Positions 9,625-38,092 of a DNA stretch of 64,000 nt are shown in pieces; positions within the stretch are counted from its first letter, which is position 1; every line of letters starts with the position of its first letter. The notes beneath the pieces are model-generated. The model did not search any database, was not told the origin of the DNA, and saw nothing but the letters and a program-made list of their open reading frames with translations. This DNA is from Stramenopiles sp. TOSAG23-2 (lineage: Eukaryota), in the NCBI GenBank assembly GCA_900128395.1, contig LT649244.1:1-64000 (forward strand), given 5' to 3'. A program made the translations under genes and the position numbers.

Positions 9625-12588
9625 TTATATTGTCATATTGCTAAGAGTAGCAGCACGATTTGGTATTTGACTTTCAATCAACCATTTTTTTTTGGATGAT
9701 TCCTCCCTTTCATGTCGCTCTTTGTCCGCTAAAACTTTTGCTTTCATTCCAGCATTTTTTTCAAGTGCTTTCCTCGTTTTGTCAACATCCCGTATTGTGC
9801 CAATTACACTGTTCACCATAATGTTATCAATTTCTTCATCATCACTCTCGGAATCAATATCGACGTTGAGAAACTTTTTGGTTTTTTCTCTTGCAATTTT
9901 AACTGGTACAGAAAATTTGCAACAAGTTTTGCTTATCAAAATTGCAATTCCAGCTGATAAAATTGACAGTAATGCTCCAAACTTAGCTTCTCCTTCCAGA
10001 ACTGGTGAATTCGGATATGCCACACCAGAAACAAAAAGTGCAACTGTCAAACCAATTGATGCAATGAAACCAATCATGAAGCAATCACGAGTTTGAATAC
10101 CGGGAGGCGGAGGATATCCAATTTTAGTACCAATCATGCTCATCAGACCTATTCCAAGTGTTTTACCCAAAATTAAACTCAGAAAAATACTAATAGATAA
10201 TATGCCAGAATTTTTCATTTGCACACCACCATTTACTAATCCAAAACTGAACATGACACCTATATCAACAAATGGCTTCAAGTCATGCTCAAATGCATGC
10301 AGTGGTGCTTTTGATCCGTGGTCTTCTTCTTCTTCATCATCCGTATGCCCATTGTTATTGCCGTTTTCTAAATCCCTCTTCATTCGTTTCTTTTCCTCTC
10401 CAGGCAATTCATTTGGTAAAAATGGAACGACGCCAACCAATGCTAAGGCTGGATGTATTGAACATTCCATCAAACCAAACCATGCCACTGGACCGGCAAT
10501 AAATATATACAATTTCCAATTCATAAATTTAAGTTTCATAAATACGTACGATATCAACATTGATAAAACAATTAATAAAAGATACAAATAATTAGGCGAT
10601 TGACTTTTATTTGGATATGCAATTGCTATTATAATGAGACCCAAACCATCATCAACAATTGCTAATAGTAATAAATATAAAATTGCTGGATGCCCAGAAC
10701 CGAAAACAAAATATGCCGTAACCCACGCCAATGAAATATCAGTAGCAGTTGGTATTCCCCAACCATTGGCAACATCGGCAAATGTTACATCAGATGGATA
10801 TAAACCCATTGAATGAAAGATAAAAGTAAACAGGAAAAAAAAGGCAACAGGACCAAATACACCACCAAATGTACCTAATAACGGATTGATCGCTTTTTCA
10901 CGTGGTGGATACATTGAACCACCTGGCGAAACTGCTTCTGTAATTTCTTTTACTGCTAAACCGAAGAAAAAACACATGAAAATATCATTTACTATGAAAT
11001 GTATTGTAACATCATGTTTATAGTGTAAATTTAAAATTGTTGGCTTAGTAGTAGACGATGAAGACGATGATAATAACATTCTTCGAGATGCAGAGACAGT
11101 GTCATTGGTTGCAACAACACCAAGTCCACTGCCACTAACATCACCATGATGCCCAGGGCCTAACCAATGATCATATGAATTTTGGGATGTATTTGCCCAT
11201 ATCATTGCAAGTAAAATACCAAGCAATAATGGCATTGCATATGTTGTTGCCGTTTCAATTGCATGTGACAAGGTATCACATCTAAGTTCTACGTTTTGCC
11301 TTGCTTCCCATTTTGCCCATTGCTTACTTGTTTTTGCAAGAGCAGATAACTCTCTACCTAATCGTATCTCTCGTTTTTTCATACCTTTTTTGGTTGGACG
11401 ATGAATTTCCGGAACCATTTTGATCTTATGTACACGTTGCTCCAGTTCAAACCGTAATTCACTTGGATTCATCGCCGTATATGCAGCGCAACAGATATGT
11501 TCATCTTGCATCAATGCCGCAAATGACCCACCAATTTCTATATCCAATTTTCTTGCCTCTGCATTATCAACGCCTAATACAATGACTAAAAACCGAGCAT
11601 TTTTAACATCCATCCCAACATTTACAGCAAATTCTAATCGTGCAAATATGATAATTCTATGATCCGTTTTTGTATCATCTAATACACCATCAGATCTATC
11701 CTTATATTTCATAAAATCACTTTCAGCAACTTTGATCAACATTGCTTCTTCTGCATATTCTTGCTCTAATACATCGGTTAAAAAACTTAACCGACGAGAC
11801 AAAGTACTAGAGTTCACAGCGGAATTGTTACTAACTTCTCTTGACATTCTAATTTCATTTTCATTTTCAACCGGATTCCGTTTTTGATGACCACATAACA
11901 TGTCAATAGCCTCTAACCTAGCTTCCATCGGAAAAATCTTTCGTTTAATGGCTTTATCAATAATATTTCTAACGACAGCACCAAACGTAAAACCTGGAAC
12001 ATCTATCATGACATGACTGTTTGAAAGACGTTGCAATATTTGTGTCAATCCATATATGCTTACTTGTGGTATTTGTGGCTTGCCCCATACGGTAGGCTTT
12101 TCACCACCTGGATAGATTTTCTTAGCTTTCTCCTCCAATCCATAATTCCATCTATGCGTATGACACCACTTATCCCCTCGTAGTTCATCCAGTTCCGCAA
12201 ATACATGTTTATCTCTCCAAAATTGATGACTTTGTGCTGGCATTTCTATCTTTTCTTTCTTGTCACTTAACCGCATTGGGGGACGAAAATCCGATGCGCT
12301 GTGGTGTTTTTTCTGTCCTGGTGGTTCAAATGAATCTTTTTGAACTTGCTTCGCGTGACTAGCTAAATAGTGCAGTTTCTCTACTATCGACCTTTGGTTA
12401 CTTCCTGGTGATTTCATATAATGTTCCAGCGCATTTATTGTTGGCAAAGCACTTAAGTTCAAAGCTGAAGGAGCATCTTTTCTCTGAAAATTTTCATTTG
12501 TTTTATCATTATTTATTGCATTCCCACTCTCAACCGTTACTATCTCTGCTTCCACAGGTTTAATATTTGCAGAAGGTCTAAATGACAT
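9625..12588 (-). CDS. nhaA: NhaA-type Na+/H+ antiporter with N-terminal Band-3/SLC4-like cytoplasmic domain
   Basis: FIVNDIFMCFFFGLAVKEI, GWGIPTATDISLA, LLAIVDDGLG, SIHPALA, LGKTLGI, IASIGLTVALFV; N-terminal ELDEL..W..RW..LEE..WGKP and RFLVIVLG..EIG..AALM. Confidence 0.9.
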   Translation of the reverse strand: MSFRPSANIKPVEAEIVTVESGNAINNDKTNENFQRKDAPSALNLSALPTINALEHYMKSPGSNQRSIVEKLHYLASHAKQVQKDSFEPPGQKKHHSASDFRPPMRLSDKKEKIEMPAQSHQFWRDKHVFAELDELRGDKWCHTHRWNYGLEEKAKKIYPGGEKPTVWGKPQIPQVSIYGLTQILQRLSNSHVMIDVPGFTFGAVVRNIIDKAIKRKIFPMEARLEAIDMLCGHQKRNPVENENEIRMSREVSNNSAVNSSTLSRRLSFLTDVLEQEYAEEAMLIKVAESDFMKYKDRSDGVLDDTKTDHRIIIFARLEFAVNVGMDVKNARFLVIVLGVDNAEARKLDIEIGGSFAALMQDEHICCAAYTAMNPSELRFELEQRVHKIKMVPEIHRPTKKGMKKREIRLGRELSALAKTSKQWAKWEARQNVELRCDTLSHAIETATTYAMPLLLGILLAMIWANTSQNSYDHWLGPGHHGDVSGSGLGVVATNDTVSASRRMLLSSSSSSTTKPTILNLHYKHDVTIHFIVNDIFMCFFFGLAVKEITEAVSPGGSMYPPREKAINPLLGTFGGVFGPVAFFFLFTFIFHSMGLYPSDVTFADVANGWGIPTATDISLAWVTAYFVFGSGHPAILYLLLLAIVDDGLGLIIIAIAYPNKSQSPNYLYLLLIVLSMLISYVFMKLKFMNWKLYIFIAGPVAWFGLMECSIHPALALVGVVPFLPNELPGEEKKRMKRDLENGNNNGHTDDEEEEDHGSKAPLHAFEHDLKPFVDIGVMFSFGLVNGGVQMKNSGILSISIFLSLILGKTLGIGLMSMIGTKIGYPPPPGIQTRDCFMIGFIASIGLTVALFVSGVAYPNSPVLEGEAKFGALLSILSAGIAILISKTCCKFSVPVKIAREKTKKFLNVDIDSESDDEEIDNIMVNSVIGTIRDVDKTRKALEKNAGMKAKVLADKERHEREESSKKKWLIESQIPNRAATLSNMTI

Positions 12589-25215: not shown

Positions 25216-26128
25216 ATGAATTGTCCCCTACCGCCACCTCGACTTCTATCTACAGAGAACAATTTACCAGTATCAGAAAATTTTTCTGCCCATAATTTGA
25301 CTTGTTGGGAGAAAATTCAGTTTAAAAACATTGGTAAGTAAAGAAATTCCCCTAAAACTATAAACGATATAACCTCTCTAACTCCTTGTTCTTTCATACG
25401 CTTCGCCCCACACAGGAGGAAAAGGAAAGAAAATTTATGTAAAAAATTTAAATCCTCCACGATGCTGTATCAAGGAGACTACGGAGAACAATAATCATTT
25501 TGAAATATGTCCTAAAGGCTTAAAATTCATACGTTTTTTGAAATGTTTTTTCAGCCAATGTGGTGTTGTCGCTGATATATTTGTATTTTTTGAAAGTCAA
25601 ACGCACTGTGCTTGTATTGTTGTATATGCTTCATATACTGCTGCCACCCGTTCGTTAAAAGAATTAAATGGCGTACCGTTGAACGGTAGGTCAATTTTAG
25701 TTGCTAAACCAAAACAACATTATTTTTCCAATTTATATGTACATAAACAAGAGAGGCAAATAATAAATTTGGCAAATGTTGTATTTGGTTTCAATCATTG
25801 GAGTTCAGAAATAATTGAAACAAAATTAGAAAAAGTAGAAGTTGTAAAACGAAGGACAACGGAAGGGGGAACTTATGAAAATGAAAATGTATTATATGTT
25901 GCAGCATGTACAACTACTATACAAGTTAATATTGCGTTGTCTCCAACTATATTAAATAATTTATCAGTCCTAGGAACAATAACATATGAGGCTACAAGTG
26001 ATAAAAAATTAGAAGCTGTAAAACAAAGTCGAATTGAATCAAAAACTAGAGCATTAATTATTGCTTTTGAGAAAATCCAAGTTGCTGTATCTTCAAAATT
26101 TATTATCCCAATGATAATCAAAACATAA
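25216..26128 (+). CDS. RRM + Rad52-motif protein (RDM1-like); exons 25216-25333 and 25416-26128
   Basis: Intron GTAAGT (25334) to CACAG (25415) gives a continuous frame; RNP2-like KIYVKNL, FSQCGVV, LKELNG; Rad52 motif IINLANVVFGFNHWSSEI. Confidence 0.8.
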
Positions 26129-26262: not shown

Positions 26263-26860
26263 TCATACAAGATGATATGATAATTCAGTTGCATTACGTT
26301 TAATATTATTTTCAATTTTGTCTATTGTCATTTTTATTGTTTGTATCGTTTTCTCATGTTTTTCAATTTGCTTTAGTATTATTGCAATCTTACGTGCCTC
26401 ATCCTTATCATATACTTTTTTATTTATTTCATTATCTTCCTTTCCATTGATCTTTGTTCCACTTTCTTTGCTTTAGTATTATTGCAATCTTACGTGCCTC
26501 ATCCTTATCATATACTTTTTTATTTATTTCATTATCTTCCTTTCCATTGATCTTTGTTCCACTTTCTAGATCTTTTTCTTCACACTTCTTTACTTCCATC
26601 GAAATATCGTTATTTGCATTTTGACCATCTGATGATGTTGCAACCTCACTATCACTGGTGGTAATAATATTAGGATGATTTGAATCATCTTGCTTTCGTT
26701 TACAAATTGTATTACGACAACAATTTTCAGGAATAGGAACTTCTTGTAATGCAAATGATAATACAACAAGGCCATTGAAAAAATGTGCAAACCACATTGT
26801 AAATGTAACAAAAATTGAAGGTCTTTTATAGAAAAATTCAATAGTACATCTCGTGGACAA
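26263..26860 (-). pseudogene. 3' fragment of a membrane/coiled-coil gene interrupted by a 100-bp duplication
   Basis: Removing one copy gives ..ILKQIEKHEKTIQTIKMTIDKIENNIKRNATELSYHLV*; frame closed upstream near 26884. Confidence 0.55.
26367..26567. repeat. Exact 100-bp tandem duplication inside a CDS
   Basis: CTTTAGTATTATTGC at 26371 and 26471. Confidence 0.9.
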
Positions 26861-27068
26861 TGAGTGGCAATCAATATATCTTCATAAAGATACGCATCAT
26901 CATGATGATGGTGAACAAGCTGGAAGCCATAAGACGGAGTTACCTCCATTAGATGGATATATTTGTGATCCAAAGTATAAAGGCGATTGTGGCACCCCAC
27001 CGATATTTCACAGGAAGTATAATCAAGAACCGTCTGGACTGTTTCGGCAGGAGCATCAAGAGCTGTAG
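26853..27068 (+). pseudogene. 3' fragment of another gene
   Basis: DNEWQSIYLH..LPPLDGYICDPKYKGDCGTPPIF..EHQEL*; no ATG; in-frame stop at 26829. Confidence 0.5.
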
Positions 27069-27510
27069 AAGCCAGGAAATTAATATTTTTTCATATTTAT
27101 TACGAGTGTGTTTGCATTTTTTTTTACGAACAATAATAGTAGAAAAATATGTGTTCTCCCCCGGTAAAATTAAATAAAAGTCGTGTTTTTGTGCTTTTTT
27201 TTTAAATTAAAAAAGATACAGACAACAAATATATCTTGTGTAAATAAGAGAATTATTTACAATATTTACATTTTTATTATTTTTACACACATATTTTTAT
27301 TTATTTTTTTAAATATTTTATTTTTTATAAATTTAAATAAAAAATATATTATTTTCCTTATTTTTTAAAATAATTACACACGAATATTACTATAATTACT
27401 AATTACTGGTAATAATATTCGTTTTTAAAATGTTAAAACACATTATTGTCTCAACATTGAAAGTAGCTCAGCTAGCATATAAAAATTTACGTTCGTACCT
27501 GCTGGTAGTT

Positions 27511-30500
27511 TTACGATCGTCGAATTAAATGCGCAGCATCATTCATTTTTTGTTTTGTACTTTTCATATTCTTATATATTTCTTTCTCAAAATGTTTTGC
27601 TGCATCTTCTGGTGATAAATGTAACATTAACTTTTCACGCATGTACATAATGTCCTTTTTAGATCTCAATTCAGGAATTTCAGCAGATATCATCAATTGC
27701 AGCAACGAAAATAATAAATTAGCGTTTTCGCGCAAGATATTGTATGCTTCACCACACGTTTCAACAAATTGACCAAACATTGGACTGTTTTCCCCATCCA
27801 TAACAGAGGCAAACGCAGGAGTAAAGACGAATGATTCTCTTTCCCTTTTATAACCAAACTTCGATTTAAAATTACCTAAAAAATGACCAAAATCAATGTG
27901 AAAGAGCCTACCGTCTCTCGTTACCATAATATTGTCATTGTGACGATCACCAAGCCCTAAAACATAAGTTGCTACACAATATCCTGCGCATGACCTCATA
28001 AACCGACGTTTGTAGTAAGGCCGTTTCTTTGTAGCCGTGTTACTCCTGCTGGTAACCATTTTGCCTCTATTTCTAGAATTTTCACGACCATATGTTTTCC
28101 TTTTTTTTTGTTTCTTACCAAAAAGCTGTTCAGTTTGCGTATCAAAAGTCTGCACCGATTCAAAATTCCAATTAGTGCCATGCTCATTATTTTGCAAACT
28201 GAGCCAATCACTGATATACGTCGTTTTAAACATCGCATCCCGTGCTATACGTAACTTTTTCAAAAAGAGACCTTCTGTATTTCCAGTTTTAACAATGCCA
28301 GCAACTGTCTTTGAATTTTCAACAATTTCAATGAAACCTTCTTCCTCTCCAGTTGGAACAACAGAATATGCCGATATTAATAAATCCAGTTTGTTTTTCT
28401 TCCACATTTGATCCATAACTTGCAAAATTTGTATTGTCAACTGATCTTGCCGTAAATCATCTCCAGTTTTAAACATCGCTTGCAATGTATAGGTTGGAAA
28501 ATTTGATTGACCTCTTGCTTCTTGGGTGGATAAATTTTTTGGAATAGCAATTGCGTCGAAATTCAACCAAAGCGGAACTTGCTTTGAATCCATGACACGA
28601 CATTTTTGAATGTTAATGTTTTTACATATAAAATCAGGAGATAGGGGCAATTGATATGTTTTGAAAAATTTTTCAGTTGTTAAATGCTGCAGCCCTGTTT
28701 TGATTTCGCGACGTTTACGATCCAATGATTTGAATTCTTTCAATGCCATGCTTAAATCTTTTAATTTTTGTACTAAATATAATTGACGGCCAAACTCAAG
28801 CCTATGAATATCTTCAACATGCATGAGATAAATTTGCAATACTATAGTATTCCTTGTTCGAACCAAATTATCATATAATGAAGATCGCAGGTTCCAATAC
28901 AAAACATGTCCAATTATATCTGGATTACGTAATGCCCTACGAACTAATAAACGTGAAAGTGCAGAATCATGATAAGGTTCATGTCGCAATGAATTTGTCA
29001 GTTGTAACATATATATGCGCATCTCGTCATCTGTCCACGAATCTAAACGTGTGACGGCAAATGATCGAACGGCTGGATCCGCAAACGATGGCCCTAATAA
29101 TGTTAAAGCATCAGTGGCAGAAAAACATTGCCACATGTTCAAAAGACGATGCAGCTCGGTCACTTGCTCTACTTTTGTATAATCTACTGCCAAGACCAAT
29201 TTTGGTAATGCTGCTGGTATTGACATCAACGATTTCCGACTTTCCCATATCAATAATTTCTCTGCTGCGACCATAGGTTCAAGTAAATCAGCTTTCACAA
29301 CTGCAACTGCCGGATGCGTATGGCGCCCATCTCTGCTATCCTTTAAAAAACCTTCAGGATCAAGGAATAGCTGATTTGGCGTTGCAACTTGATTAAAATC
29401 GGAGCTAGCACCAGCGAAAAGATTTTCATCGTCATCAATTGCATCCTCGTCATCATCTCCATCGATTACATTATCTCCATCGTTATTATTCTTTTCCTCA
29501 AGCTGATCCCGTTTTTTTTTTGCCGAATCGGGAGATGAAATGAGATCTATATATGAGCGCCCTCTTTCTTTTTGGTAAGAATGCACCACTGATCTTTGAT
29601 CTGGGGATACTCGTTCAAAAAGTACACGTAAGTCACCGCCAGATGCTGTATTAGCAACAACCATGCTCGATGATTGTGCTGGTTTAAACTCTTTCCCAGC
29701 CCATGTACTTAGTGTAATATTACCAGTTACGAGTTCACCTAAGTAATCGTATAACATAATACCAGCCCAAGAGGAAGGCACTGGATCAGCTTTCGCATTG
29801 TACTTTGCCGGCATAATTTTAAAAACCACACGTGTTGCTTTAGGCAATTCATTAATTTTCAAGCTAAACTCTGTTTTAGCTTGCCATTGCATTGAACTCC
29901 CTGATTCACCATCAAGTTCAATTTCCTTACTTAAAGTTGTTTCTTGTTTTTCTAATAAATGTAAACCGTGCCACAATTCAACAGAAACGATGCTCGGTTC
30001 ATATTCCCCCCCCTTCTTTTCTTCAAGGCTTAATATTGTTACTGAAAATGGCACCTCTATAAATGCGGAGGAAATATCCGTCTTCATATTCAAAGAACGG
30101 ACAAATTGAGAATTATTTTCAAAAACACTTGCCAATTGCTTTGCTACTCCTTGAATAAGAATTTCATCTTTTTCTCCGAAGTAACTCCATTTCTTTGTCC
30201 CAGACAATCTCTTATTTATCACTTGGATCACCGCACATATATCGTTTTCACCATGTTTATTAGAATATACTGGGGCGCACAGAATGGAACGAGTTTGAAA
30301 TCCCGTTTTTTTATCAACATCCCGATTAAATCTATGGTCTTTATACGCCCGGGGTATATTTTCTATCTTTCCTGTTTTTGCAACCTCACCTGCAATTCCT
30401 TTTACTGGTAATCTCAAACCTTTTGCCGTTTTATCAACTAATAAGACCAATGCTGGTGGATCTGCATTTTTATCATATAAAAATAGTCCACATCTTTCTG

Positions 30501-32004
30501 CATCAAAAAATGAGGTCAAACTTTCCATAATTCGTTCTATCACATCTTGCGGACCTAATTCTGGCGAATATACTTTTAACAATTCGAGATACAAGGATGA
30601 CTTTAAGTACAAGCTTTCATCATGATCTACATCGGCTTTTAATTTCATGGATAGAACATCTGCATATTTTTTACTATATAATAATAAAGCATCTCTAGCT
30701 CCAGAGTCATCCTCATCACTGTACAATGCTCCAATTAGATGAGCGTGACCAGACAATACTTTTTGAAAAATGTTTCTTGACAATGACAATAACGTCACAC
30801 TTTCATTTGCATAAACAGATGCAGTGCGGCGTTCTGCCGTTAATAGTGCACGTTCCCCGAAGCATTGACTGGTACCTAATCTACCAACTTCTTCCTCCTC
30901 CATACCAGGCGATTCCTTATTTATTTTAGTAATCTTAACACTTCCTTTAATTATGATATAAAATTTTTCACATTTATCATCTCCCTCGTATATGATTTTT
31001 TCACCAGCTTCGAAAAACTCTTTGACGCACTTATCATTTACTTCTTGTAAGTCTTCTCGACTCAATTGCCTAAGTGCAGATACATTCATTAAATATTTTA
31101 AATAGTTACCATCTTCAATTTGTTCTTCTTCAAAATTTTGCCTGACAATGTCTCTCACTCTAGCCTTTTCTCTAACCATATTTTCATTGGAAGAAGCTTT
31201 ACTTGGTTCGTCATCATCATCGTGAAAGAAGAAATTATTGACGCGAAGAATATCCTTATTTGATGATACGCGTGATAGTGGACCTAACCGTGGTATTATC
31301 GAGCTGCGATCTGCAACAAGTCCATTCTGTGCTCCATTATTTATATCCTCAAAATTTTGCTTACCAACATTTATTTCACTACTTTCGAGTTCATAGTGTG
31401 CCTTGTTAAAATGATCGTGCAACGCCTCTTGCCGTTTACTCCAGAATCTACAATAACTGTTCAAATCGTGTAACTCCGAAGCTATTGAATACATATTTAA
31501 ATATTTTTTTCTATCCTCTTCCTCTATTTGTTCTGACAGCTCACTAGCTAAAGACAGCCCCCCCCATTTGCTGTCTGCACCCCCATAATTATTACTATCA
31601 TTACTATATACCATCTTTCCTTGATTCCGAAAGGTAGACGTTTGAAATGGAATGAGCTCTTCTTTAATATCTGAAAACTCCCCATATTTTTGTAAATAGT
31701 CAACCTGAATAGAATCTGCAATTTCATCATCAGTCAACAATAGGTTTGGTATTTCGCGCCCAATCCATTTCAACTCGTTATTTGTGGGCTTCTTATTTAC
31801 ATCCTTTTTTGCAAATGTTGTAATTTGCTTTTGTTTCATTATTTTTTTACTATACTTGGTATTTCTACTTTCTTTTTCTTCTTTTGTATTTAATTGTCTA
31901 TTACCTTTATGAATATTTGCATTTGCAGTTTGTGGAGAATAAGCAGTCAAAAACGACGCCAAAGATGCACGACGAGCGCGCCTGCTTTTAACGTTGGAGT
32001 TCAT
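27511..32004 (-). CDS. Phosphoinositide 3-kinase (class I-like core) with N-terminal cNMP-binding and GAF domains
   Basis: Kinase MDSKQVPLWL, FKTGDDLRQD, YVLGLGDRHNDN, HIDFGHFLGN; helical and C2 segments; cNMP FGERALL..RTASV; GAF GIAGEVA, TGFQTRSILCAP, INK..F..DE; first ATG at 32004. Confidence 0.9.
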   Translation of the reverse strand: MNSNVKSRRARRASLASFLTAYSPQTANANIHKGNRQLNTKEEKESRNTKYSKKIMKQKQITTFAKKDVNKKPTNNELKWIGREIPNLLLTDDEIADSIQVDYLQKYGEFSDIKEELIPFQTSTFRNQGKMVYSNDSNNYGGADSKWGGLSLASELSEQIEEEDRKKYLNMYSIASELHDLNSYCRFWSKRQEALHDHFNKAHYELESSEINVGKQNFEDINNGAQNGLVADRSSIIPRLGPLSRVSSNKDILRVNNFFFHDDDDEPSKASSNENMVREKARVRDIVRQNFEEEQIEDGNYLKYLMNVSALRQLSREDLQEVNDKCVKEFFEAGEKIIYEGDDKCEKFYIIIKGSVKITKINKESPGMEEEEVGRLGTSQCFGERALLTAERRTASVYANESVTLLSLSRNIFQKVLSGHAHLIGALYSDEDDSGARDALLLYSKKYADVLSMKLKADVDHDESLYLKSSLYLELLKVYSPELGPQDVIERIMESLTSFFDAERCGLFLYDKNADPPALVLLVDKTAKGLRLPVKGIAGEVAKTGKIENIPRAYKDHRFNRDVDKKTGFQTRSILCAPVYSNKHGENDICAVIQVINKRLSGTKKWSYFGEKDEILIQGVAKQLASVFENNSQFVRSLNMKTDISSAFIEVPFSVTILSLEEKKGGEYEPSIVSVELWHGLHLLEKQETTLSKEIELDGESGSSMQWQAKTEFSLKINELPKATRVVFKIMPAKYNAKADPVPSSWAGIMLYDYLGELVTGNITLSTWAGKEFKPAQSSSMVVANTASGGDLRVLFERVSPDQRSVVHSYQKERGRSYIDLISSPDSAKKKRDQLEEKNNNDGDNVIDGDDDEDAIDDDENLFAGASSDFNQVATPNQLFLDPEGFLKDSRDGRHTHPAVAVVKADLLEPMVAAEKLLIWESRKSLMSIPAALPKLVLAVDYTKVEQVTELHRLLNMWQCFSATDALTLLGPSFADPAVRSFAVTRLDSWTDDEMRIYMLQLTNSLRHEPYHDSALSRLLVRRALRNPDIIGHVLYWNLRSSLYDNLVRTRNTIVLQIYLMHVEDIHRLEFGRQLYLVQKLKDLSMALKEFKSLDRKRREIKTGLQHLTTEKFFKTYQLPLSPDFICKNINIQKCRVMDSKQVPLWLNFDAIAIPKNLSTQEARGQSNFPTYTLQAMFKTGDDLRQDQLTIQILQVMDQMWKKNKLDLLISAYSVVPTGEEEGFIEIVENSKTVAGIVKTGNTEGLFLKKLRIARDAMFKTTYISDWLSLQNNEHGTNWNFESVQTFDTQTEQLFGKKQKKRKTYGRENSRNRGKMVTSRSNTATKKRPYYKRRFMRSCAGYCVATYVLGLGDRHNDNIMVTRDGRLFHIDFGHFLGNFKSKFGYKRERESFVFTPAFASVMDGENSPMFGQFVETCGEAYNILRENANLLFSLLQLMISAEIPELRSKKDIMYMREKLMLHLSPEDAAKHFEKEIYKNMKSTKQKMNDAAHLIRRS

Positions 32005-32962
32005 ACTTTTTGTTGTCAATCCAACGACTGTTGTACAATTATCTGCAGTTTATTTGATATAATAAATATGATACCGATGTAATATAACAATTAACAAACT
32101 GTAATGTTTATTACAGTATGTTAAATAAATGGATAGATATAAGTTTAAAATAAGTAGTTGTTGTTTTTTTGCACTTTTTTTTTTTTTAATTAATAAAGTT
32201 GTTATTATTTATAATGTGGCTTTTTGTTGTTTTTTCATGGTAGTCTACTGGGTAAGAAAACACTGTATCAATAAATACTATACAGCCTTTTGCCTTTTAC
32301 TTTTACATTGTGGTTACATTAACAAAAGTTGTAGTTGTATTATAATAAATATTAATACCACACCAGCACACTGGCTGGCTGGCACAGCATTACATCAGGC
32401 ATCAGGATCTTGAACTACAGTATTGATTTAGATACGAGGACTGAGCAAAAATCGCAAAGAAATATACGTTATGGTATTTCCATATTAGTGTATAAGTTGA
32501 GCAATTTCTACCTGGTATAACCCGGTAATAGTATTTTTTCAACTTTTTCGGTGCATAATATTTAATAGTACCAGGGAGGGAGTATACTGTACTCTGATGG
32601 GTACTATATAATAATATCTAATATTAGTATACTTGTAATAAAATGCTTATACAACATGTAAATACTATTAATAATATATATAACTAATAGTCGATTTAAA
32701 GTATATATCTATTTCAATATAATATATAAAGAGAATTCTTTCTAATACATATACAAGAAAAACCAAAAAAATTAACCGGTATCTATATATAGTTATAATA
32801 AAATAGTCATAAAATTTGTGTAATAAAAATTAGAATCATCTAACATAGAAAACAAAATTTGTTTATAGTATGAAATACGCCGTCTAGACTAATAAATCAG
32901 AAAATTAATGTAAAACAATAACTTTAAGTCGATTTAATTGTCGTACACCATATAATATAAAC

Positions 32963-35900
32963 ATGGAAAGAAAATATTATGATTACGCTAATAATCATGA
33001 TGGCTTTGACATATACCAAGACTTCGATTATCACGGAGACGAACGCAAGCAAACTAGGACAAGGAGAAGAAAATGGGAAAAAGTACGTAGAAGAGGTAAA
33101 GTTAAGAGCATCTTGAATTATCCACGAAAAAAATATGATATGGTCGAAAAAGCCAAAGTATTATCGAAATCCAGTAAGTCCATACCAGCTACAGGTGGTC
33201 CAAATCTTATACGGCATCGTTTAAAACTTCGGGCCAGAGGACAATTACAAACAACCAAGGCAGAGGCATCATTTAAAAGCGCTAAATCAAGTCTAAAAAA
33301 TAATAGAAAATCTAAATCCATTCGAAAAAAAGCGCGAAAAAATGCGCATAAAATTAATAAATTACTCACCGATGTAAAACAAGCAGCACCTCAACCAGAT
33401 TGGCTTATAAAAGCACAAGAACCGATTCCATCACGCTCTATTATACGGGATATACGTAATATGCGCGAAGTACGCGATGATAGATTTTCAAAATTTTTGT
33501 TACCACCACGCTCTAGATCAGACTTAGGCACTGCAGCATCATCATCCATCCACACAGAGCATGAATTGTATACACAACGAGATTGGCAACCCAGGACACC
33601 AATACAACATTTAGCTCCAGACGTTATGGATCATGTTCGGAAATCCCTCGGCATGAATACAAGAATAGAAGAATCTTTAGTTGATCTTCATCGTACAACA
33701 TACGGCACGTCAGATACCCAATCAAAAATGGCATCACTAGAATGGTTTACATATCGCTACCCTATACTCCTGCAACGAGATAAATTTGCTGAAGACAACG
33801 CAGTTACGACTATTGGCAAAGCATGGAGAGCATTTCTAGCACGGCGAGCTTATAAAGAAATATTATTCATCGTTAGGGAAAAGGAACGAGCAGCAACAAA
33901 AATCCAACGCATGTACCGCACACGATTGCATAATCGATATACAAAGGAGGCAATATCCATAATGAAAGGTATAATTGTAAATTATTGTATTGATGCTGGC
34001 CTTGAAAATAGAGTTAAAGCTTTACGTGAGGAAGAAAAGTTGGAGAGGATACGACTGAAAAAAATAAAGGAGAAAAGATGGGCTGAAAAGGCAGAGGAGA
34101 GAAGAAAAAAAAGAGAAATTTGGCTTGAGAAAGAAAAAATAAGATTAGCAAAAGAAGCACTTGAAAGAAAAAGACAAAATAGCGCAAATAAAATTCAGCA
34201 ACTACGGAAATCATTTAAATTACGAAAAGAAATTTCAAATAGAATAGAAATTAGGAGAAGAAGGTATTTTGCAGCGATTATGGTGCAAAAACATGTAAGA
34301 GCAAAGCAAATTCAAAAAAGGAATCAAGAAATATATTCTCATTTAAAAAAAATCAGGACTGCTCGTATACAAAAGGAGGCTGCGATTAAAATCCAACGCA
34401 CATTTATGTATTTTAGAGGGAAAAAGTGGAAACAAAGAATGCTGTACGGGTTATACATTTGCAAGATAACAGGTGCAGATTATGAAATTCCGTCACCGAA
34501 TAAATTGCATCGCTGGATTTTCATGGATGATCCTGACTACGTGGATCCAGTGCATAGAGATAGATTGTTTACAGAGATGTTTGCACATAGTCCCAATAAA
34601 AGGACAAATCAGGCTTTACGTGCAAAAAGACACTTAATGAGTTCCATTGAGCTTGCTCATGTATATCACATGACTGGAAGGCTTAAATCAGCTCAAAAGG
34701 CTTGGCATGATATAATATTGAATCGCATAGGAAATGCAAAACCAACACAGCGCTCTGTAGCCTACATATCGCAGCTTATACTTGTAATGCATGCTCGAGG
34801 AACGTATGAAGCTGCAGAGCCTTGGATAATGGCTTGCGATGACGTTGTTAAACTTATTGAGCACCAAAAGAAAATGGCAAGACTATTTTTTGTAAGAATA
34901 GTCGCCGGGCCATGCTGGAGAGCGCTTGAATTGATACACCATAGGGCTAAAAAAAAACGTAGAAAGGCTGCTGAATATTTTGCATCCCTTGCAGGCAAGA
35001 AACGGAAGTTAATCTTTATTAGATGGAAATTTTATACAGAGGCATCTGTTTTTAATCGAATTAGGTTGAAATCTTACTCAATTCGTACATGGAAAAACAA
35101 TGTGGAATTTTTAAAACGATTAAAAGCAACGATGAGATCTATTTTAAATGGAAATATGAAGCGTTTGATGTACGCATGGAGGGAAGCTGCCGATGAGGAG
35201 AAACGATTACGTTGGGTACGAAAACTAGCAAAAGTATTTGCCAGTCGAACTTTAAAACGAAACGCGCTTCGAAAATGGATGACATATTTGTACTACAGAA
35301 AAGTACTTGGTCCAGCAATTAATAATATTAATCAAGCACTTTATCGACTAATGAAGGAAGCAATGCGAATATGGAAATGGTTCCCATCGCCATTTCAAGA
35401 AAAGTGGGCAGCTTTGAGAATTCAGGCAACTTGGAGAATGCATTTAGGGAAACGCCGTTTTAGAATGTTTTGGCGACGAAGAGCGTTGCAACAGCTCCTT
35501 GACGAAGAAAAAGCAGTGGAGTTAGCAAAATTAAACGCTGCAGCGTCTAAAATACAAGGATTATTTAGAATTAAAAAGGCATGGGCACGTAGAATGGACA
35601 GAGTGGTATTTCTGATACAAGAAAAGCACTTTCGAGATGAGAGATTGAAAGAATTGCTATTCGATTTTCAAGAAGTCAAAGAAGAATTGTCATACATTGG
35701 GAGCACCCCTGATACTGTTCAAAAGCTACAAAAAAAAGCGAAACAAAGCTCCGTTAATGCCGAACGTGTAAGGAAAGGCTTGCGTATAGTGGTACGAAAG
35801 GAAAAGGATGAGTTGCGATTAGTCATTAAGAAAACTGCACCAAAAATAGTGAAAGCAGAGTGTGTAAAAATTGCAAAAGAGATTAGATCAGAAGGTAGGT

Positions 35901-38092
35901 TATTAGGAAGAGAAAAAAAGAAGGTAGACGGTCAAGTGAGACGCTCTGTCAAAGAATTTAAAAAGAAGTGTACGGACAAAAGAGAAAAGGCATATGCTAG
36001 ATACAAACGTTTTTTAGAATTGCAAAAGCGGAATAAAGATGATATTGAAAGGTATCGAATTTACGAAGAAAAATGTGATGCGGAAGTGGAAAAGTTCCTG
36101 GAGCTAGATGAAATCGAGCAGGTAGAACGAAAGATTAAAGAAGCTAAACAACAAATTATTGATGATTCAGCAAAAAGAATCACGGCATTATTTAGAGGAA
36201 ACATGGTTTATAAAAGAACAAATAGATTACTTCAATTAAATCGGAACAAGAAAGTCCTAGATATATGGGCGGCAGAAACAGTCCAAACCTGGTGGAGATT
36301 TGTATTTGCGAGAGGCATAGCGAGGCAAAAAAGAGAACGGAAAGCATTTGAAGATAAATCTAGTATTCGATTAAAATATTTAAGAAAACTTCGCGGACAA
36401 AAATCAGCTGGTGATTCAAGGGAAAAATTATATTTGTCGCGATTAGATCGTATAAAACTGACAGACGATAATGTGAAGAAAGTAATTGATAAATTTGAAG
36501 AAAAAGTTATAAAAAAGCTGAGATTGAAAGAAGAAACAATAACCAAAATAGAAAAAATTTTGGAAAAGAAACCACGTTTAGAGAAAAGATGGAATAAGTA
36601 CTTTCCATCAGTTTTCAAACCCCCAAATTGGGGAAAGCAAGATTATACTAAACCATCTGTTTGCCTTGATAGATTTTTCAATGATATGCACGAAGTTGTA
36701 TTAGATTTCGTAGCTGCGCAAATACCTTTCAAAGAGGAAGGACCTTACGCATATATAAAAGTTAAAATTGCAGTGAAACAAGTCAATCGCTTGATGAAAG
36801 TCTTCAAGAATTCTGTTAAATTTGATGTCCACTCAATAACTGATGGAATCTTAGAACGCGGGGGAAAGTTATGCTTGAAACCAGTCACATTTGATGGATT
36901 TAGCGGCAGTGGAGGAGTCCCGTTGAAACCACAAATCCATGGAATTTGGAGAGTTCCAGTTTACCACGCAAATTTTGGCTGGTTAAGACAATCAAGGCAA
37001 CGAGAGGCTAGCTTCAATTTCAAAAATGCTACTTTCGGTGCAGATATGCACATGTCAATGCAAGCGATTATGAAGAAACTAGAACTCCAAGCAAAGAAAC
37101 AAAGGGAAGCTGATCAAGCAAAAGTAAGAATGAGGGAAGAGCAAGAGCAAGCCGCGGAAGAAAATAAGAAAAAATCGCGAGAAATTGCAAAAGTCAATTA
37201 TTTGGAACATTTAGAAGATGATGTAAATGTTGATTATGCATATCAATTACTAGGTGGAGAACGTGTCAAAGAAGATGAAATTAAACTGTTGGATGATGGT
37301 GCAGCGGATGCAGCAGCAAGACGAGCTGCCGAACTGCTGGCTAATGAACTAGCATTAGTGCCAGCAATGGAAGGCGAGTTAGATATTGGAACGGATGAAG
37401 AATTATCTAAGAAAGCACGTGGATATAAACCAGGACAAGAAGAACACTATTCAGAATATGTCATGTGTGCCATATGCGAATTACGCCATGAGAAAAAACG
37501 ACCTGCTGCACGTTTATGTCATAAATGCGCTCAACCATATTGTAATGAATGCTGGAGAATGTATCATGGTAAACATGCATATGGACACAACTGGACTAAA
37601 ATTGATATTTACCACAACGCCTTGCGAGATCCGGTACATGAAAAACATATTGAACGGACAGAACAAGATGCATATCTTTTACATTTACAAATTGTTAATC
37701 CACAACGATATGCAGTATTACAATATAAAAAGAAATGGCTATGGTCTGATCAAAATCTCGCTCGTGTTCGACAGATGTTTGTTGACATTGATAAAGGTCG
37801 TACTGGACGTATTGAAATCAATGATGCTGCCAACGTTTGCCGTGTTATACTTGGCAAACGAAGTGATGAACTGCCAGTTGTTAAAGTTTCATTATTGCGC
37901 GCTTGGAAAGTCAATAAAATTCCTGATCTTGGGATCACTTTTAGTGAACTTCAGCGTTTGTTTGTGCCATTTTATGAATATTTGAAGATAAATATGCGTG
38001 AGCGTTTAAAATTGAAAGTTGCAAGTGAAGGTGCGGAGAAGGGAACAGTAGATTTTAATCAGTGGAGAGTTGCGAAAAATAAAAAAGGGTGA
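32963..38092 (+). CDS. Large IQ-motif/coiled-coil protein with B-box zinc finger and EF-hand
   Basis: Many IQxxxR motifs (KIQRMYR, RIQATWR, KIQGLFR); CAIC..CHKC..YCNECW..H..H; DIDKGRTGRIE. Confidence 0.75.
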   Translation: MERKYYDYANNHDGFDIYQDFDYHGDERKQTRTRRRKWEKVRRRGKVKSILNYPRKKYDMVEKAKVLSKSSKSIPATGGPNLIRHRLKLRARGQLQTTKAEASFKSAKSSLKNNRKSKSIRKKARKNAHKINKLLTDVKQAAPQPDWLIKAQEPIPSRSIIRDIRNMREVRDDRFSKFLLPPRSRSDLGTAASSSIHTEHELYTQRDWQPRTPIQHLAPDVMDHVRKSLGMNTRIEESLVDLHRTTYGTSDTQSKMASLEWFTYRYPILLQRDKFAEDNAVTTIGKAWRAFLARRAYKEILFIVREKERAATKIQRMYRTRLHNRYTKEAISIMKGIIVNYCIDAGLENRVKALREEEKLERIRLKKIKEKRWAEKAEERRKKREIWLEKEKIRLAKEALERKRQNSANKIQQLRKSFKLRKEISNRIEIRRRRYFAAIMVQKHVRAKQIQKRNQEIYSHLKKIRTARIQKEAAIKIQRTFMYFRGKKWKQRMLYGLYICKITGADYEIPSPNKLHRWIFMDDPDYVDPVHRDRLFTEMFAHSPNKRTNQALRAKRHLMSSIELAHVYHMTGRLKSAQKAWHDIILNRIGNAKPTQRSVAYISQLILVMHARGTYEAAEPWIMACDDVVKLIEHQKKMARLFFVRIVAGPCWRALELIHHRAKKKRRKAAEYFASLAGKKRKLIFIRWKFYTEASVFNRIRLKSYSIRTWKNNVEFLKRLKATMRSILNGNMKRLMYAWREAADEEKRLRWVRKLAKVFASRTLKRNALRKWMTYLYYRKVLGPAINNINQALYRLMKEAMRIWKWFPSPFQEKWAALRIQATWRMHLGKRRFRMFWRRRALQQLLDEEKAVELAKLNAAASKIQGLFRIKKAWARRMDRVVFLIQEKHFRDERLKELLFDFQEVKEELSYIGSTPDTVQKLQKKAKQSSVNAERVRKGLRIVVRKEKDELRLVIKKTAPKIVKAECVKIAKEIRSEGRLLGREKKKVDGQVRRSVKEFKKKCTDKREKAYARYKRFLELQKRNKDDIERYRIYEEKCDAEVEKFLELDEIEQVERKIKEAKQQIIDDSAKRITALFRGNMVYKRTNRLLQLNRNKKVLDIWAAETVQTWWRFVFARGIARQKRERKAFEDKSSIRLKYLRKLRGQKSAGDSREKLYLSRLDRIKLTDDNVKKVIDKFEEKVIKKLRLKEETITKIEKILEKKPRLEKRWNKYFPSVFKPPNWGKQDYTKPSVCLDRFFNDMHEVVLDFVAAQIPFKEEGPYAYIKVKIAVKQVNRLMKVFKNSVKFDVHSITDGILERGGKLCLKPVTFDGFSGSGGVPLKPQIHGIWRVPVYHANFGWLRQSRQREASFNFKNATFGADMHMSMQAIMKKLELQAKKQREADQAKVRMREEQEQAAEENKKKSREIAKVNYLEHLEDDVNVDYAYQLLGGERVKEDEIKLLDDGAADAAARRAAELLANELALVPAMEGELDIGTDEELSKKARGYKPGQEEHYSEYVMCAICELRHEKKRPAARLCHKCAQPYCNECWRMYHGKHAYGHNWTKIDIYHNALRDPVHEKHIERTEQDAYLLHLQIVNPQRYAVLQYKKKWLWSDQNLARVRQMFVDIDKGRTGRIEINDAANVCRVILGKRSDELPVVKVSLLRAWKVNKIPDLGITFSELQRLFVPFYEYLKINMRERLKLKVASEGAEKGTVDFNQWRVAKNKKG

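What the first reader, a model, noticed from the sequence alone, without database searches (positions are those of the whole stretch)
27511..32004. Candidate cyclic-nucleotide-gated PI3K (cNMP-GAF-C2-helical-kinase)
Seen: where class I PI3Ks carry adaptor- and Ras-binding domains, this ORF has a cNMP-binding domain (~31100-30760, FGERALLTAERRTASV) and a GAF domain (~30560-30120) with an NK..F..DE motif. The catalytic DRHNDN and DFG motifs are intact. Known: R-T in the phosphate-binding cassette is the PKG-type cGMP-favouring signature, and NKFDE marks phosphodiesterase-type cyclic-nucleotide GAFs. Inference: direct cGMP/cAMP-to-phosphoinositide signalling in one polypeptide.
Basis: partly seen in the sequence, partly recalled or inferred. 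Interest (0 to 1): 0.8.

Follow-up and report, generated by a model that had tools for sequence, protein, structure and literature searches.

The report
Cyclic-nucleotide-sensing PI3 kinase of stramenopiles
A marine protist gene encodes a lipid kinase of the kind that makes the signalling lipid PIP3, but with two cyclic-nucleotide sensor domains in place of its usual control domains, a design shared by many related protists that may let cAMP or cGMP switch lipid signalling on directly.

Summary
An intronless 1497-codon ORF encodes CNB–GAF–C2–helical–kinase, with intact catalytic residues and a class I-type activation loop. It is no chimera: four other 1497-aa copies exist, RNA-library contigs of four studies match it, and 62 of the 67 best relatives carry both sensor domains (named ones: MAST-4, labyrinthulids, Cafeteria, chrysophytes, Triparma). 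The CNB and GAF sit where class I enzymes have the ABD and RBD. The ABD–RBD linker probably survives between them (structure supports this; sequence only weakly). Oomycete PI3Ks are cryptic members that keep the module but have lost both pockets. The cGMP claim is weaker: R-A, not R-T, is the family norm (32 versus 8 of 49 intact cassettes), the PKG β5 arginine is absent, and NKFDE does not touch the ligand. Better evidence of binding is pocket conservation (51 of 58 GAFs). Most likely cNMP binding releases the N-terminal module and activates PIP3 synthesis; binding, direction and substrate are untested. Six literature searches found no description. The scan earlier reported a separate cNMP–PI3K paralogue (3×CNB, SH3, RBD) in this genome; my tree places it apart.

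The parts
27511..32004 (-). Whole ORF, 1497 aa (P0001), intronless CNB-GAF-C2-helical-kinase PI3K
   Evidence: no joints in RNA-library contigs of 4 runs
31951..31989 (-). N-terminal basic stretch with an R-R-x-S-L site (S14), shared with the MAST-4 orthologue; possible PKA/PKG phospho-site (motif meaning recalled)
31114..31950 (-). Poorly conserved N-terminal region (residues 19-297); some relatives carry a WW or C2 domain here
30745..31113 (-). Cyclic-nucleotide-binding domain (residues 298-420), in the ABD slot
   Evidence: Pfam; RI-alpha CNB-B 51.1 bits; AF2 model
30814..30861 (-). Phosphate-binding cassette, residues 382-397 (G383, E384, R393, T394); beta5 G374 lies just upstream
30625..30744 (-). 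LIG motif plus helix (421-460), probable remnant of the class I ABD-RBD linker, continuing straight from the CNB hinge helix
   Evidence: structural alignment to p110gamma often starts at model residue 127; motif in RBD-type relatives and p110alpha; sequence-level signal weak
30127..30552 (-). Single PDE/CyaB-type GAF domain (core 485-626), in the RBD slot; pocket residues G536-G539, F559, D564, T567, T571, Q594; D524 is specific to the MAST clade
30163..30216 (-). NK(x10)F(x3)DE motif, N597-E614
29674..30000 (-). PI3K-type C2 domain (Pfam core 669-777)
29365..29481 (-). Acidic low-confidence insertion (about 842-880), not conserved
28816..29304 (-). Helical (PIK) domain 901-1063
27664..28482 (-). 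Kinase catalytic domain, Pfam core 1175-1447, with ATP-site K1179
28027..28164 (-). Lys/Arg-rich low-confidence insertion in the kinase domain (about 1281-1326)
27838..27948 (-). Catalytic loop DRHNDN (1353-1358), DFGH (1371-1374) and class I-type activation loop with K1380, K1382 and KRER 1386-1389

Best explanation
A single-chain, class I-like PI3K of a stramenopile family in which the two N-terminal control domains were swapped one for one: a CNB in the ABD slot and a cNMP-type GAF in the RBD slot. Shown: architecture, family conservation, intact catalytic and activation-loop residues, conserved pockets in both sensors. Inferred step 1 (about 0.85): the CNB binds cAMP and/or cGMP, and the GAF probably does too (about 0.65). 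Inferred step 2 (about 0.65): binding changes kinase output, because the CNB hinge helix runs straight into the linker whose counterpart in p110alpha moves on activation. Inferred step 3 (about 0.45): the unliganded module clamps the core and cNMP releases it for membrane binding and PI(4,5)P2 to PIP3 conversion, so cNMP replaces Ras and adaptor input. Nucleotide: cAMP for the family as a whole; this MAST clade (T394, D524) is probably dual or cGMP-leaning (strictly cGMP-selective about 0.3).
For: Both domains in 62 of the 67 best relatives and in 51 of 53 further clusters from a chrysophyte-seeded search. Cassette G-E..R intact in 49 of 59 CNBs. All 9 chosen GAF pocket positions kept in 51 of 58; both sensors intact in 43 of 53. 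K1179, DRH, N1358, D1371, H1374, K1380, K1382 and R1387 invariant in all covered rows of a 75-row alignment, matching the p110alpha basic boxes. AF2 of residues 298-1497: pLDDT 83.8, pTM 0.86, which suggests one compact body; Z 37.2, 691 residues at 3.0 A to p110gamma. In p110alpha, ABD disengagement and exposure of the ABD-RBD linker accompany activation (PMC3712563, PMC9837058). The genome has 22 cyclase matches, 8 PDE matches and 2 PTENs with the intact active-site motif. One cyclase has Glu where adenylate cyclase 8 has its base-reading Lys, so it may make cGMP (inference).
Against: No binding or activity data. Oomycete orthologues keep the whole module (HHalign probability 99%, 319 columns) but have lost the cassette and most pocket residues (1-4 of 9 in 14 of 14), and 10 of 59 other CNBs are degenerate: the module can persist without cNMP sensing. 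Linker homology is not significant by sequence (HHalign E 0.27; no positive HMM score in 27 RBD-type proteins) and model residues 126-130 have pLDDT under 50. A GAF of an HD-type hydrolase (4mcw) shares the same pocket motifs; its ligand is, from recall, not established. I had no atomic coordinates to inspect contacts. No PDK1/Akt effector was established. A 2013 survey noted that PIP3 production had not been shown in protists such as Phytophthora (PMC3823935).
Confidence: 0.6

Rival explanations
1. The CNB-GAF module is mainly structural: a built-in stabiliser or constitutive clamp standing in for ABD/p85, with nucleotide binding absent or uncoupled from catalysis.
For: Oomycetes keep the module with both pockets lost; the Triparma-type paralogues lack the cassette Arg.
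Against: Ligand-contact residues are kept across sequences only about 30% identical overall (49 of 59 CNBs, 51 of 58 GAFs), which a purely structural role would not require.
Confidence: 0.15
2. cNMP is bound but inhibits the kinase, or controls dimerisation, localisation or partner binding rather than switching catalysis on.
For: Solved GAF relatives come from tandem-GAF PDEs and cyclases, which dimerise (recalled); sequence does not give the direction of regulation; WW or C2 targeting domains occur upstream in some relatives.
Against: Only one GAF is present; by analogy, ABD-slot movement in class IA activates; cNMP binding to the CyaB2 GAFs activates its enzyme.
Confidence: 0.17
3. It is cNMP-regulated but makes PI3P or PI(3,4)P2 (class II-like output), not PIP3.
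For: Bikont class I/II enzymes are placed before the class I/II split (PMC4617754); the first basic box has two lysines where p110alpha has four; my trees held no metazoan class I or II sequences.
Against: The activation loop differs from p110beta at 2 of 19 positions and keeps the K942 equivalent said to be conserved in all class I isoforms; all 60 listed PDB sequence hits are class I; two PTENs are present.
Confidence: 0.07
4. Assembly chimera or pseudogene.
For: The genome is fragmented (9146 contigs); no single RNA contig spans the ORF.
Against: Four other 1497-aa database proteins match at 1467-1489 positions; over 110 clusters share the layout; RNA-library contigs cross the CNB-linker and GAF-C2 borders with no joints.
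Confidence: 0.01

Closest known systems
Class I PI3K catalytic subunits p110alpha/beta/gamma/delta (PDB 4bfr, 4dk5, 4a55)
   Same: C2-helical-kinase core (Z 37), catalytic residues, activation-loop basic boxes, probably the pre-RBD linker.
   Different: No RBD and no ABD; a CNB and a GAF occupy those slots; single chain with no known regulatory subunit.
Protist RBD-type class I/II PI3Ks (Philippon et al. 2015, PMC4617754)
   Same: Same core; nearest non-family hits.
   Different: They keep the RBD; 0 of 25 hit the family GAF profile; a 98/95 branch separates 13 of them from the CNB-GAF and oomycete kinases (unrooted).
Oomycete class I-like PI3K (Phytophthora, Pythium, Albugo, Plasmopara)
   Same: Homologous over the whole CNB-linker-GAF module and on the same side of the kinase tree; one record is labelled 'GAF domain-like'.
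   Different: Cassette deleted, GAF pocket eroded; Pfam sees neither domain.
PKA RI-alpha CNB-B and PKG CNB domains
   Same: F-G-E..R cassette; beta5 segment like RI-alpha; Thr at the PKG position.
   Different: Single CNB fused to a lipid kinase; lacks the PKG beta5 Arg; its C-terminal helix leads into the PI3K linker, so the capping residue is unknown.
cNMP-binding GAFs of CyaB2, PDE5 (GAF-A), PDE10, PDE2
   Same: NKFDE and pocket motifs.
   Different: Single, not tandem; 17 family GAFs form their own branch (99) against 16 cyclase GAFs.
Bacterial-type CNB-GAF-GAF-(cyclase, HD or SpoIIE) proteins
   Same: CNB-helix-GAF tandem ahead of an enzyme.
   Different: Two GAFs, other output domains, no PEL motif; common origin of the tandem not shown (unresolved).
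SH3-3xCNB-RBD PI3K of the same genome (P0162) and CNB-RBD PI3Ks (P0111, P0112)
   Same: CNB domains fused to a class I-like PI3K.
   Different: They keep an RBD, have no GAF, and group with RBD-type kinases: probably a separate recruitment of cNMP sensing.

Membership tests
Class I PI3K | C2-helical-kinase core | tested here: met
   Pfam; structural match to p110gamma, Z 37.2, 691 residues, 3.0 A
Class I PI3K | Catalytic Lys, DRH..N, DFG and following His | tested here: met
   K1179, D1353-R-H, N1358, D1371, H1374
Class I PI3K | Activation-loop basic boxes (p110alpha K942 and KRER) | tested here: met
   K1380, K1382, K1386-R1389 (PMC6430085)
Class I PI3K | Ras-binding domain | tested here: not met
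   No PF00794; the genome search found it only on two other contigs; a GAF fills the slot
Class IA PI3K | ABD / p85-binding domain | tested here: not met
   Not among the 5 Pfam families; a CNB fold occupies the region
Class I PI3K | Groups with metazoan class I rather than class II in a tree | tested here: inconclusive
   Trees held no metazoan sequences; PDB best hits are class I
Class I PI3K | Makes PIP3 from PI(4,5)P2 | not testable with these tools
   needs a lipid-kinase assay
Class II PI3K | C-terminal PX and C2 domains | tested here: not met
   The protein ends with the kinase domain; definition from PMC4617754
Class III (Vps34) | Core only, with a short non-class-I activation loop | tested here: not met
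   Extra domains present; loop differs from the genome's own Vps34-like kinase L008 (the Vps34 label is my reading of its motif)
Canonical CNB domain | Cassette Gly-Glu and Arg | tested here: met
   G383, E384, R393
PKG-type cGMP-selective CNB | Thr after the cassette Arg | tested here: met
   T394 = RI-alpha A336T position
PKG-type cGMP-selective CNB | Arg on beta5 (RI-alpha G316R position) | tested here: not met
   G374; Arg in 0 of 62 aligned family CNBs
cNMP-binding PDE/CyaB GAF | NKFDE motif | tested here: met
   N597 K598 F609 D613 E614; structural, not ligand-contacting
cNMP-binding PDE/CyaB GAF | Ribose/phosphate pocket residues as in PDE5 GAF-A | tested here: met
   Alignment; 9 positions chosen from that alignment and from recall, scored
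cNMP-binding PDE/CyaB GAF | Tandem GAF pair | tested here: not met
   One GAF only
cNMP-binding PDE/CyaB GAF | Measured cAMP or cGMP binding | not testable with these tools
   needs a binding assay

The most novel reading that the evidence does not exclude
An ancient stramenopile family of PI3Ks switched on directly by cyclic nucleotides. Two sensors of unrelated fold replaced the ABD and RBD and drive the native class I activation linker, so cNMP is turned into PIP3 with no Ras, G protein, adaptor or protein kinase between. The MAST lineage retuned both sensors toward cGMP, oomycetes lost both pockets, and a second PI3K lineage in the same cell recruited CNBs independently.
Probability: 0.45. 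Interest if true: 0.87.

Novelty: new variant of a known kind. Interest (0 to 1): 0.7.

Why it matters
Known class I PI3Ks answer to Ras, G proteins and phosphotyrosine adaptors. From my own knowledge and six literature searches, I know of no lipid kinase gated directly by a cyclic nucleotide. If confirmed, this adds a new class of cNMP effector and a direct cNMP-to-PIP3 link in abundant marine grazers, where such a link could drive prey capture or motility (inference). It shows that the ABD/RBD slots of the PI3K core can be exchanged while the activation linker is kept. It re-annotates the N-terminus of the oomycete class I-like PI3K. It also offers a compact single-chain PI3K that could serve as a cNMP-controlled PIP3 tool. 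Culturable members (Cafeteria, thraustochytrids, Paraphysomonas) make it testable.

Tried and rejected
Complex prediction of the CNB (298-420) against the C2-helical-kinase core with cAMP gave 'no answer', score 0.00 in two runs, alignment not used; it counts neither way. A single-sequence AF2 model of an oomycete orthologue was unusable (pLDDT 36). The ESM Atlas gave one generic PI3K cluster at 0.84 and no structure search. The search of 50%-identity representatives with the CNB-GAF module was dominated by multi-GAF and multi-CNB proteins; 15 of the 148 new rows had both domains or a kinase part. A CNB-only tree was too short to resolve origin. The FastTree with partial Vps34-like outgroups gave no usable root. 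A linker HMM scored no RBD-type protein above zero. Pairwise BLAST alone did not detect the oomycete N-terminal homology (E 0.12). A search seeded on the Pythium N-terminus returned 23 proteins, with no Saprolegniales among the named ones, so where the pockets were lost is undated. One homologue search timed out. A repeat scan of 26500-33500 showed only short AT-rich matches. No PDK1/Akt was established. One cluster member is labelled Symbiodinium sp. KB8; I did not treat it as evidence of an alveolate member, as contamination is possible and unchecked. No AU test of monophyly was run. RNA contigs left parts of the ORF without cover (for example 31308-31641), which shows nothing; no silent control stretch was laid. 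PMC4019043 was not held; Meijer and Govers 2006 was seen only as a reference; no supplements were read, and the domain figure of PMC4617754 could not be seen.
Full report
Observation. The minus strand carries one open frame from ATG 32004 to the stop at 27511, 1497 residues. Pfam gives, in order, cNMP_binding 329-418, GAF 485-626, PI3K_C2 669-777, PI3Ka 901-1063 and the kinase domain 1175-1447, all over the curated cut-offs and with no Ras- or p85-binding family. The window is eukaryotic, about one third G+C, from a 32.8 Mb assembly in 9146 contigs. The nearest named relative is a MAST-4 protein at 50% identity, so I infer a marine MAST-type stramenopile.

Not a chimera. The cluster of this protein has 36 members; of the 15 listed, four are 1497 aa long and match at 1467-1489 positions. 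Of 23 listed runs, 22 hold the stretch or part of it, 14 of them on record as RNA. Four poly(A) or oligo-dT runs of four studies each gave 8-9 contigs with no joints; one crosses the CNB-linker border (30611-30905) and one the GAF-C2 border (29928-30172). These are contigs: none spans the ORF, and DNA carry-over is not excluded.

A family. A search with residues 290-1497 listed the best 120 of 2003 hits. With profiles built from these hits, 62 of the best 67 carry both CNB and GAF, some only in part; of the 5 others, 4 lack the CNB and 1 lacks both, and all 5 are short (825-1139 aa). Named members are MAST-4, Triparma, Hondaea, Mucochytrium, Thraustochytrium, Cafeteria, Paraphysomonas, Epipyxis and Spumella; most rows are unnamed. 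A second search seeded on a chrysophyte added 53 clusters: 51 with CNB and GAF, 43 also with part of the helical/kinase region. One cluster member is labelled Symbiodinium, unverified. The range outside stramenopiles was not surveyed.

Kinase. All 60 listed PDB sequence hits are class I subunits; the activation loop differs from p110beta at 2 of 19 positions. K1179, D1353-R-H, N1358, D1371, H1374, K1380, K1382 and R1387 are invariant in all covered rows of a 75-row alignment. K1380 and the KRER box correspond to the p110alpha basic boxes that recognise the lipid (PMC6430085, passages). The genome's Vps34-like kinase has a different loop. It fails class I membership on the RBD and class II membership on PX-C2, so I call it class I-like. 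In an unrooted IQ-TREE of 38 selected helical-kinase sequences, a 98/95 branch separates 13 RBD-type kinases, P0162 and P0115 from 19 CNB-GAF kinases, 3 oomycete kinases and the N-terminally incomplete P0163 (a 52-row quick tree gave a similar split at 95 but left P0162 outside the RBD group). No metazoan sequences were in the trees.

Domain-for-domain swap. AF2 of residues 298-1497 with 75 sequences gives pLDDT 83.8 and pTM 0.86, which suggests the sensors are placed on the core, though I could not inspect contacts. The model matches p110gamma at Z 37.2 over 691 residues, 3.0 A, and many alignments begin at model residue 127 (I424) against p110gamma 151-152, ahead of its RBD (the RBD limits are recalled). 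A LIG..E..F-R/K motif marks this linker in 23 of 27 RBD-type proteins and aligns with p110alpha; the family has LIG..E..SL.RH directly after the CNB. The sequence signal alone is not significant (HHalign E 0.27; no HMM hit). So the CNB probably fills the ABD slot and the GAF the RBD slot, with the linker kept. In p110alpha, movement of the ABD and exposure of this linker accompany activation (PMC3712563, whole text; PMC9837058, passages).

CNB and nucleotide preference. The cassette Gly, Glu and Arg are intact here and in 49 of 59 family CNBs that cover it (62 aligned, 3 truncated, the near-identical P0002 dropped). The residue after the Arg is Ala in 32, Thr in 8, Ser in 4, Asn in 3, Met in 1 and Lys in 1; in the chrysophyte-biased second set it is Ala in 45 of 53. 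Among the alignments shown, the best single domain is PKA RI-alpha CNB-B, 51.1 bits. PKG-type selectivity needs both a Thr and a beta5 Arg, and even the G316R/A336T double change in one domain gave equal binding of both nucleotides (PMC4565163, whole text; PMC6440977, passages). T394 is the A336 position, but G374 is the G316 position and is never Arg in the family.

GAF. Its best solved relatives are CyaB2, PDE5, an HD-type hydrolase, PDE10 and PDE2. NKFDE is exact in 13 of 66 relatives and does not contact the ligand, though it is needed for binding (PMC11977230, passages). More telling, nine pocket positions, which I chose from the PDE5 GAF-A alignment and from recall, are all kept in 51 of 58 covered GAFs, and both sensors are intact in 43 of 53. 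By register with CyaB2, V523-D524 fall at I308-T309, which stack on and read the base (PMC4411481, passages). The family has Ser there in 52 of 66; Asp occurs only in this protein, its near-copy and two close relatives, which also carry T394. An Asp discriminates cGMP in PDE5 GAF-A, but that it is the same position is my inference. This gives modest support to a cGMP lean in this clade only.

Oomycetes. Profiles built without oomycetes hit the GAF region in 17 of 21 oomycete-type kinases (the 4 misses are short) and in 0 of 25 RBD-type controls. Profile-profile alignment covers 319 columns at 99% probability, with no match for the RBD control; one record is independently labelled 'GAF domain-like'. 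In 14 of 14 the cassette is deleted and 1-4 of 9 pocket residues remain. This extends the family, and it is also the best argument for a structural role.

Context. The genome has 22 cyclase matches, 8 PDE matches, 64 CNB matches and two PTENs with an intact active site. One two-domain cyclase has Glu where adenylate cyclase 8 has its base-reading Lys, a hint of cGMP synthesis. No PDK1 or Akt was established. A second PI3K, P0162, has SH3 domains, three CNBs and a weak RBD; the scan had noted it before (e1-7157540). It groups with RBD-type kinases in the careful tree, so cNMP sensing was probably added to PI3K more than once. CNB-GAF-GAF tandems also precede cyclase, HD and SpoIIE domains, two of them in clusters named as bacterial; a common origin is not shown.

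Mechanism. Most likely the unliganded CNB-GAF module holds the core in a low-activity state; cNMP moves the CNB hinge helix, which pulls on the linker and frees the membrane-binding face, and PIP3 is made; the GAF adds a second site. Architecture, conservation and catalytic integrity are shown; binding, coupling, direction and substrate are inferred (overall 0.6 for cNMP-regulated kinase output, 0.45 for direct activation to PIP3).

Novelty. Six full-text searches listed no paper on this architecture. The eukaryote-wide PI3K survey never uses 'GAF', 'cNMP' or 'cyclic nucleotide' and gives bikont class I/II enzymes four domains including the RBD (PMC4617754, passages); a ciliate survey has no 'GAF' or 'cNMP' either (PMC3823935, passages). 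Subscription papers, including Meijer and Govers 2006, and supplements were not seen, and the domain layout is present in automatic annotations. Verdict: a real, conserved, apparently undescribed variant of class I-like PI3K; interest 0.7.

Noticed in passing
L015:349-6969 (G000:C2900), protein P0162: Second cNMP-PI3K of this genome, 2207 aa: SH3 domains, three CNBs all with R-T, a weak RBD, C2, helical, kinase; groups with RBD-type kinases. Already noted by the scan (e1-7157540).
   Followed up: partly
P0080, P0085, P0104, P0108 and other oomycete hits: Oomycete class I-like PI3Ks carry a hidden, ligand-dead CNB-GAF module that Pfam does not detect.
   Followed up: yes
P0010, P0016, P0023/P0371 versus P0024: Ochrophytes seem to have two paralogue lines: one with a degenerate CNB but intact GAF pocket (Triparma type), one with both intact; Paraphysomonas has both.
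   Followed up: partly
P0111, P0112: Unnamed PI3Ks with two CNBs ahead of a retained RBD: a third cNMP-PI3K layout.
   Followed up: partly
L040:315-4337 (G000:C1380, minus): 1341-aa frame with WW, two PH, PI3K RBD and weak PI3K C2 domains but no helical or kinase domain in the frame; may be the front of a split PI3K gene or a kinase-less partner.
   Followed up: partly
L018:2825-6673 (G000:C775): FYVE domain fused to a PIK-helical and PI3/PI4-kinase domain, 1283 aa.
   Followed up: no
L042:2387-6376 (G000:C1536, minus): Two-domain membrane cyclase resembling mammalian adenylate cyclases but with Glu at the base-reading position: possible guanylate cyclase.
   Followed up: partly
window 9625-12588 (minus): NhaA-type Na+/H+ antiporter fused behind a Band 3 cytoplasmic domain.
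   Followed up: no
window 49718-52039 (minus): FAD_binding_2 (fumarate-reductase-like) flavoprotein fused to a C-terminal flavodoxin.
   Followed up: no
window 32963-38092 (plus): 1709-aa IQ-motif protein with a weak B-box, transcribed head to head with the PI3K gene across about 960 bases.
   Followed up: no
window 25538-26128 (plus): RRM plus Rad52/RDM1-like domain gene downstream of the PI3K.
   Followed up: no
L031:28-4551, L032:963-5714, L030:4033-9660: Other GAF proteins of the genome: a permease with three GAFs (noted earlier by the scan), a GAF-GAF-EF-hand protein and a long multi-GAF protein.
   Followed up: no
P0182, P0203, P0219, P0429-P0436: CNB-GAF-GAF tandems ahead of cyclase, SpoIIE or HD domains, some in clusters named as bacterial: the same sensor pairing on other enzymes.
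   Followed up: partly
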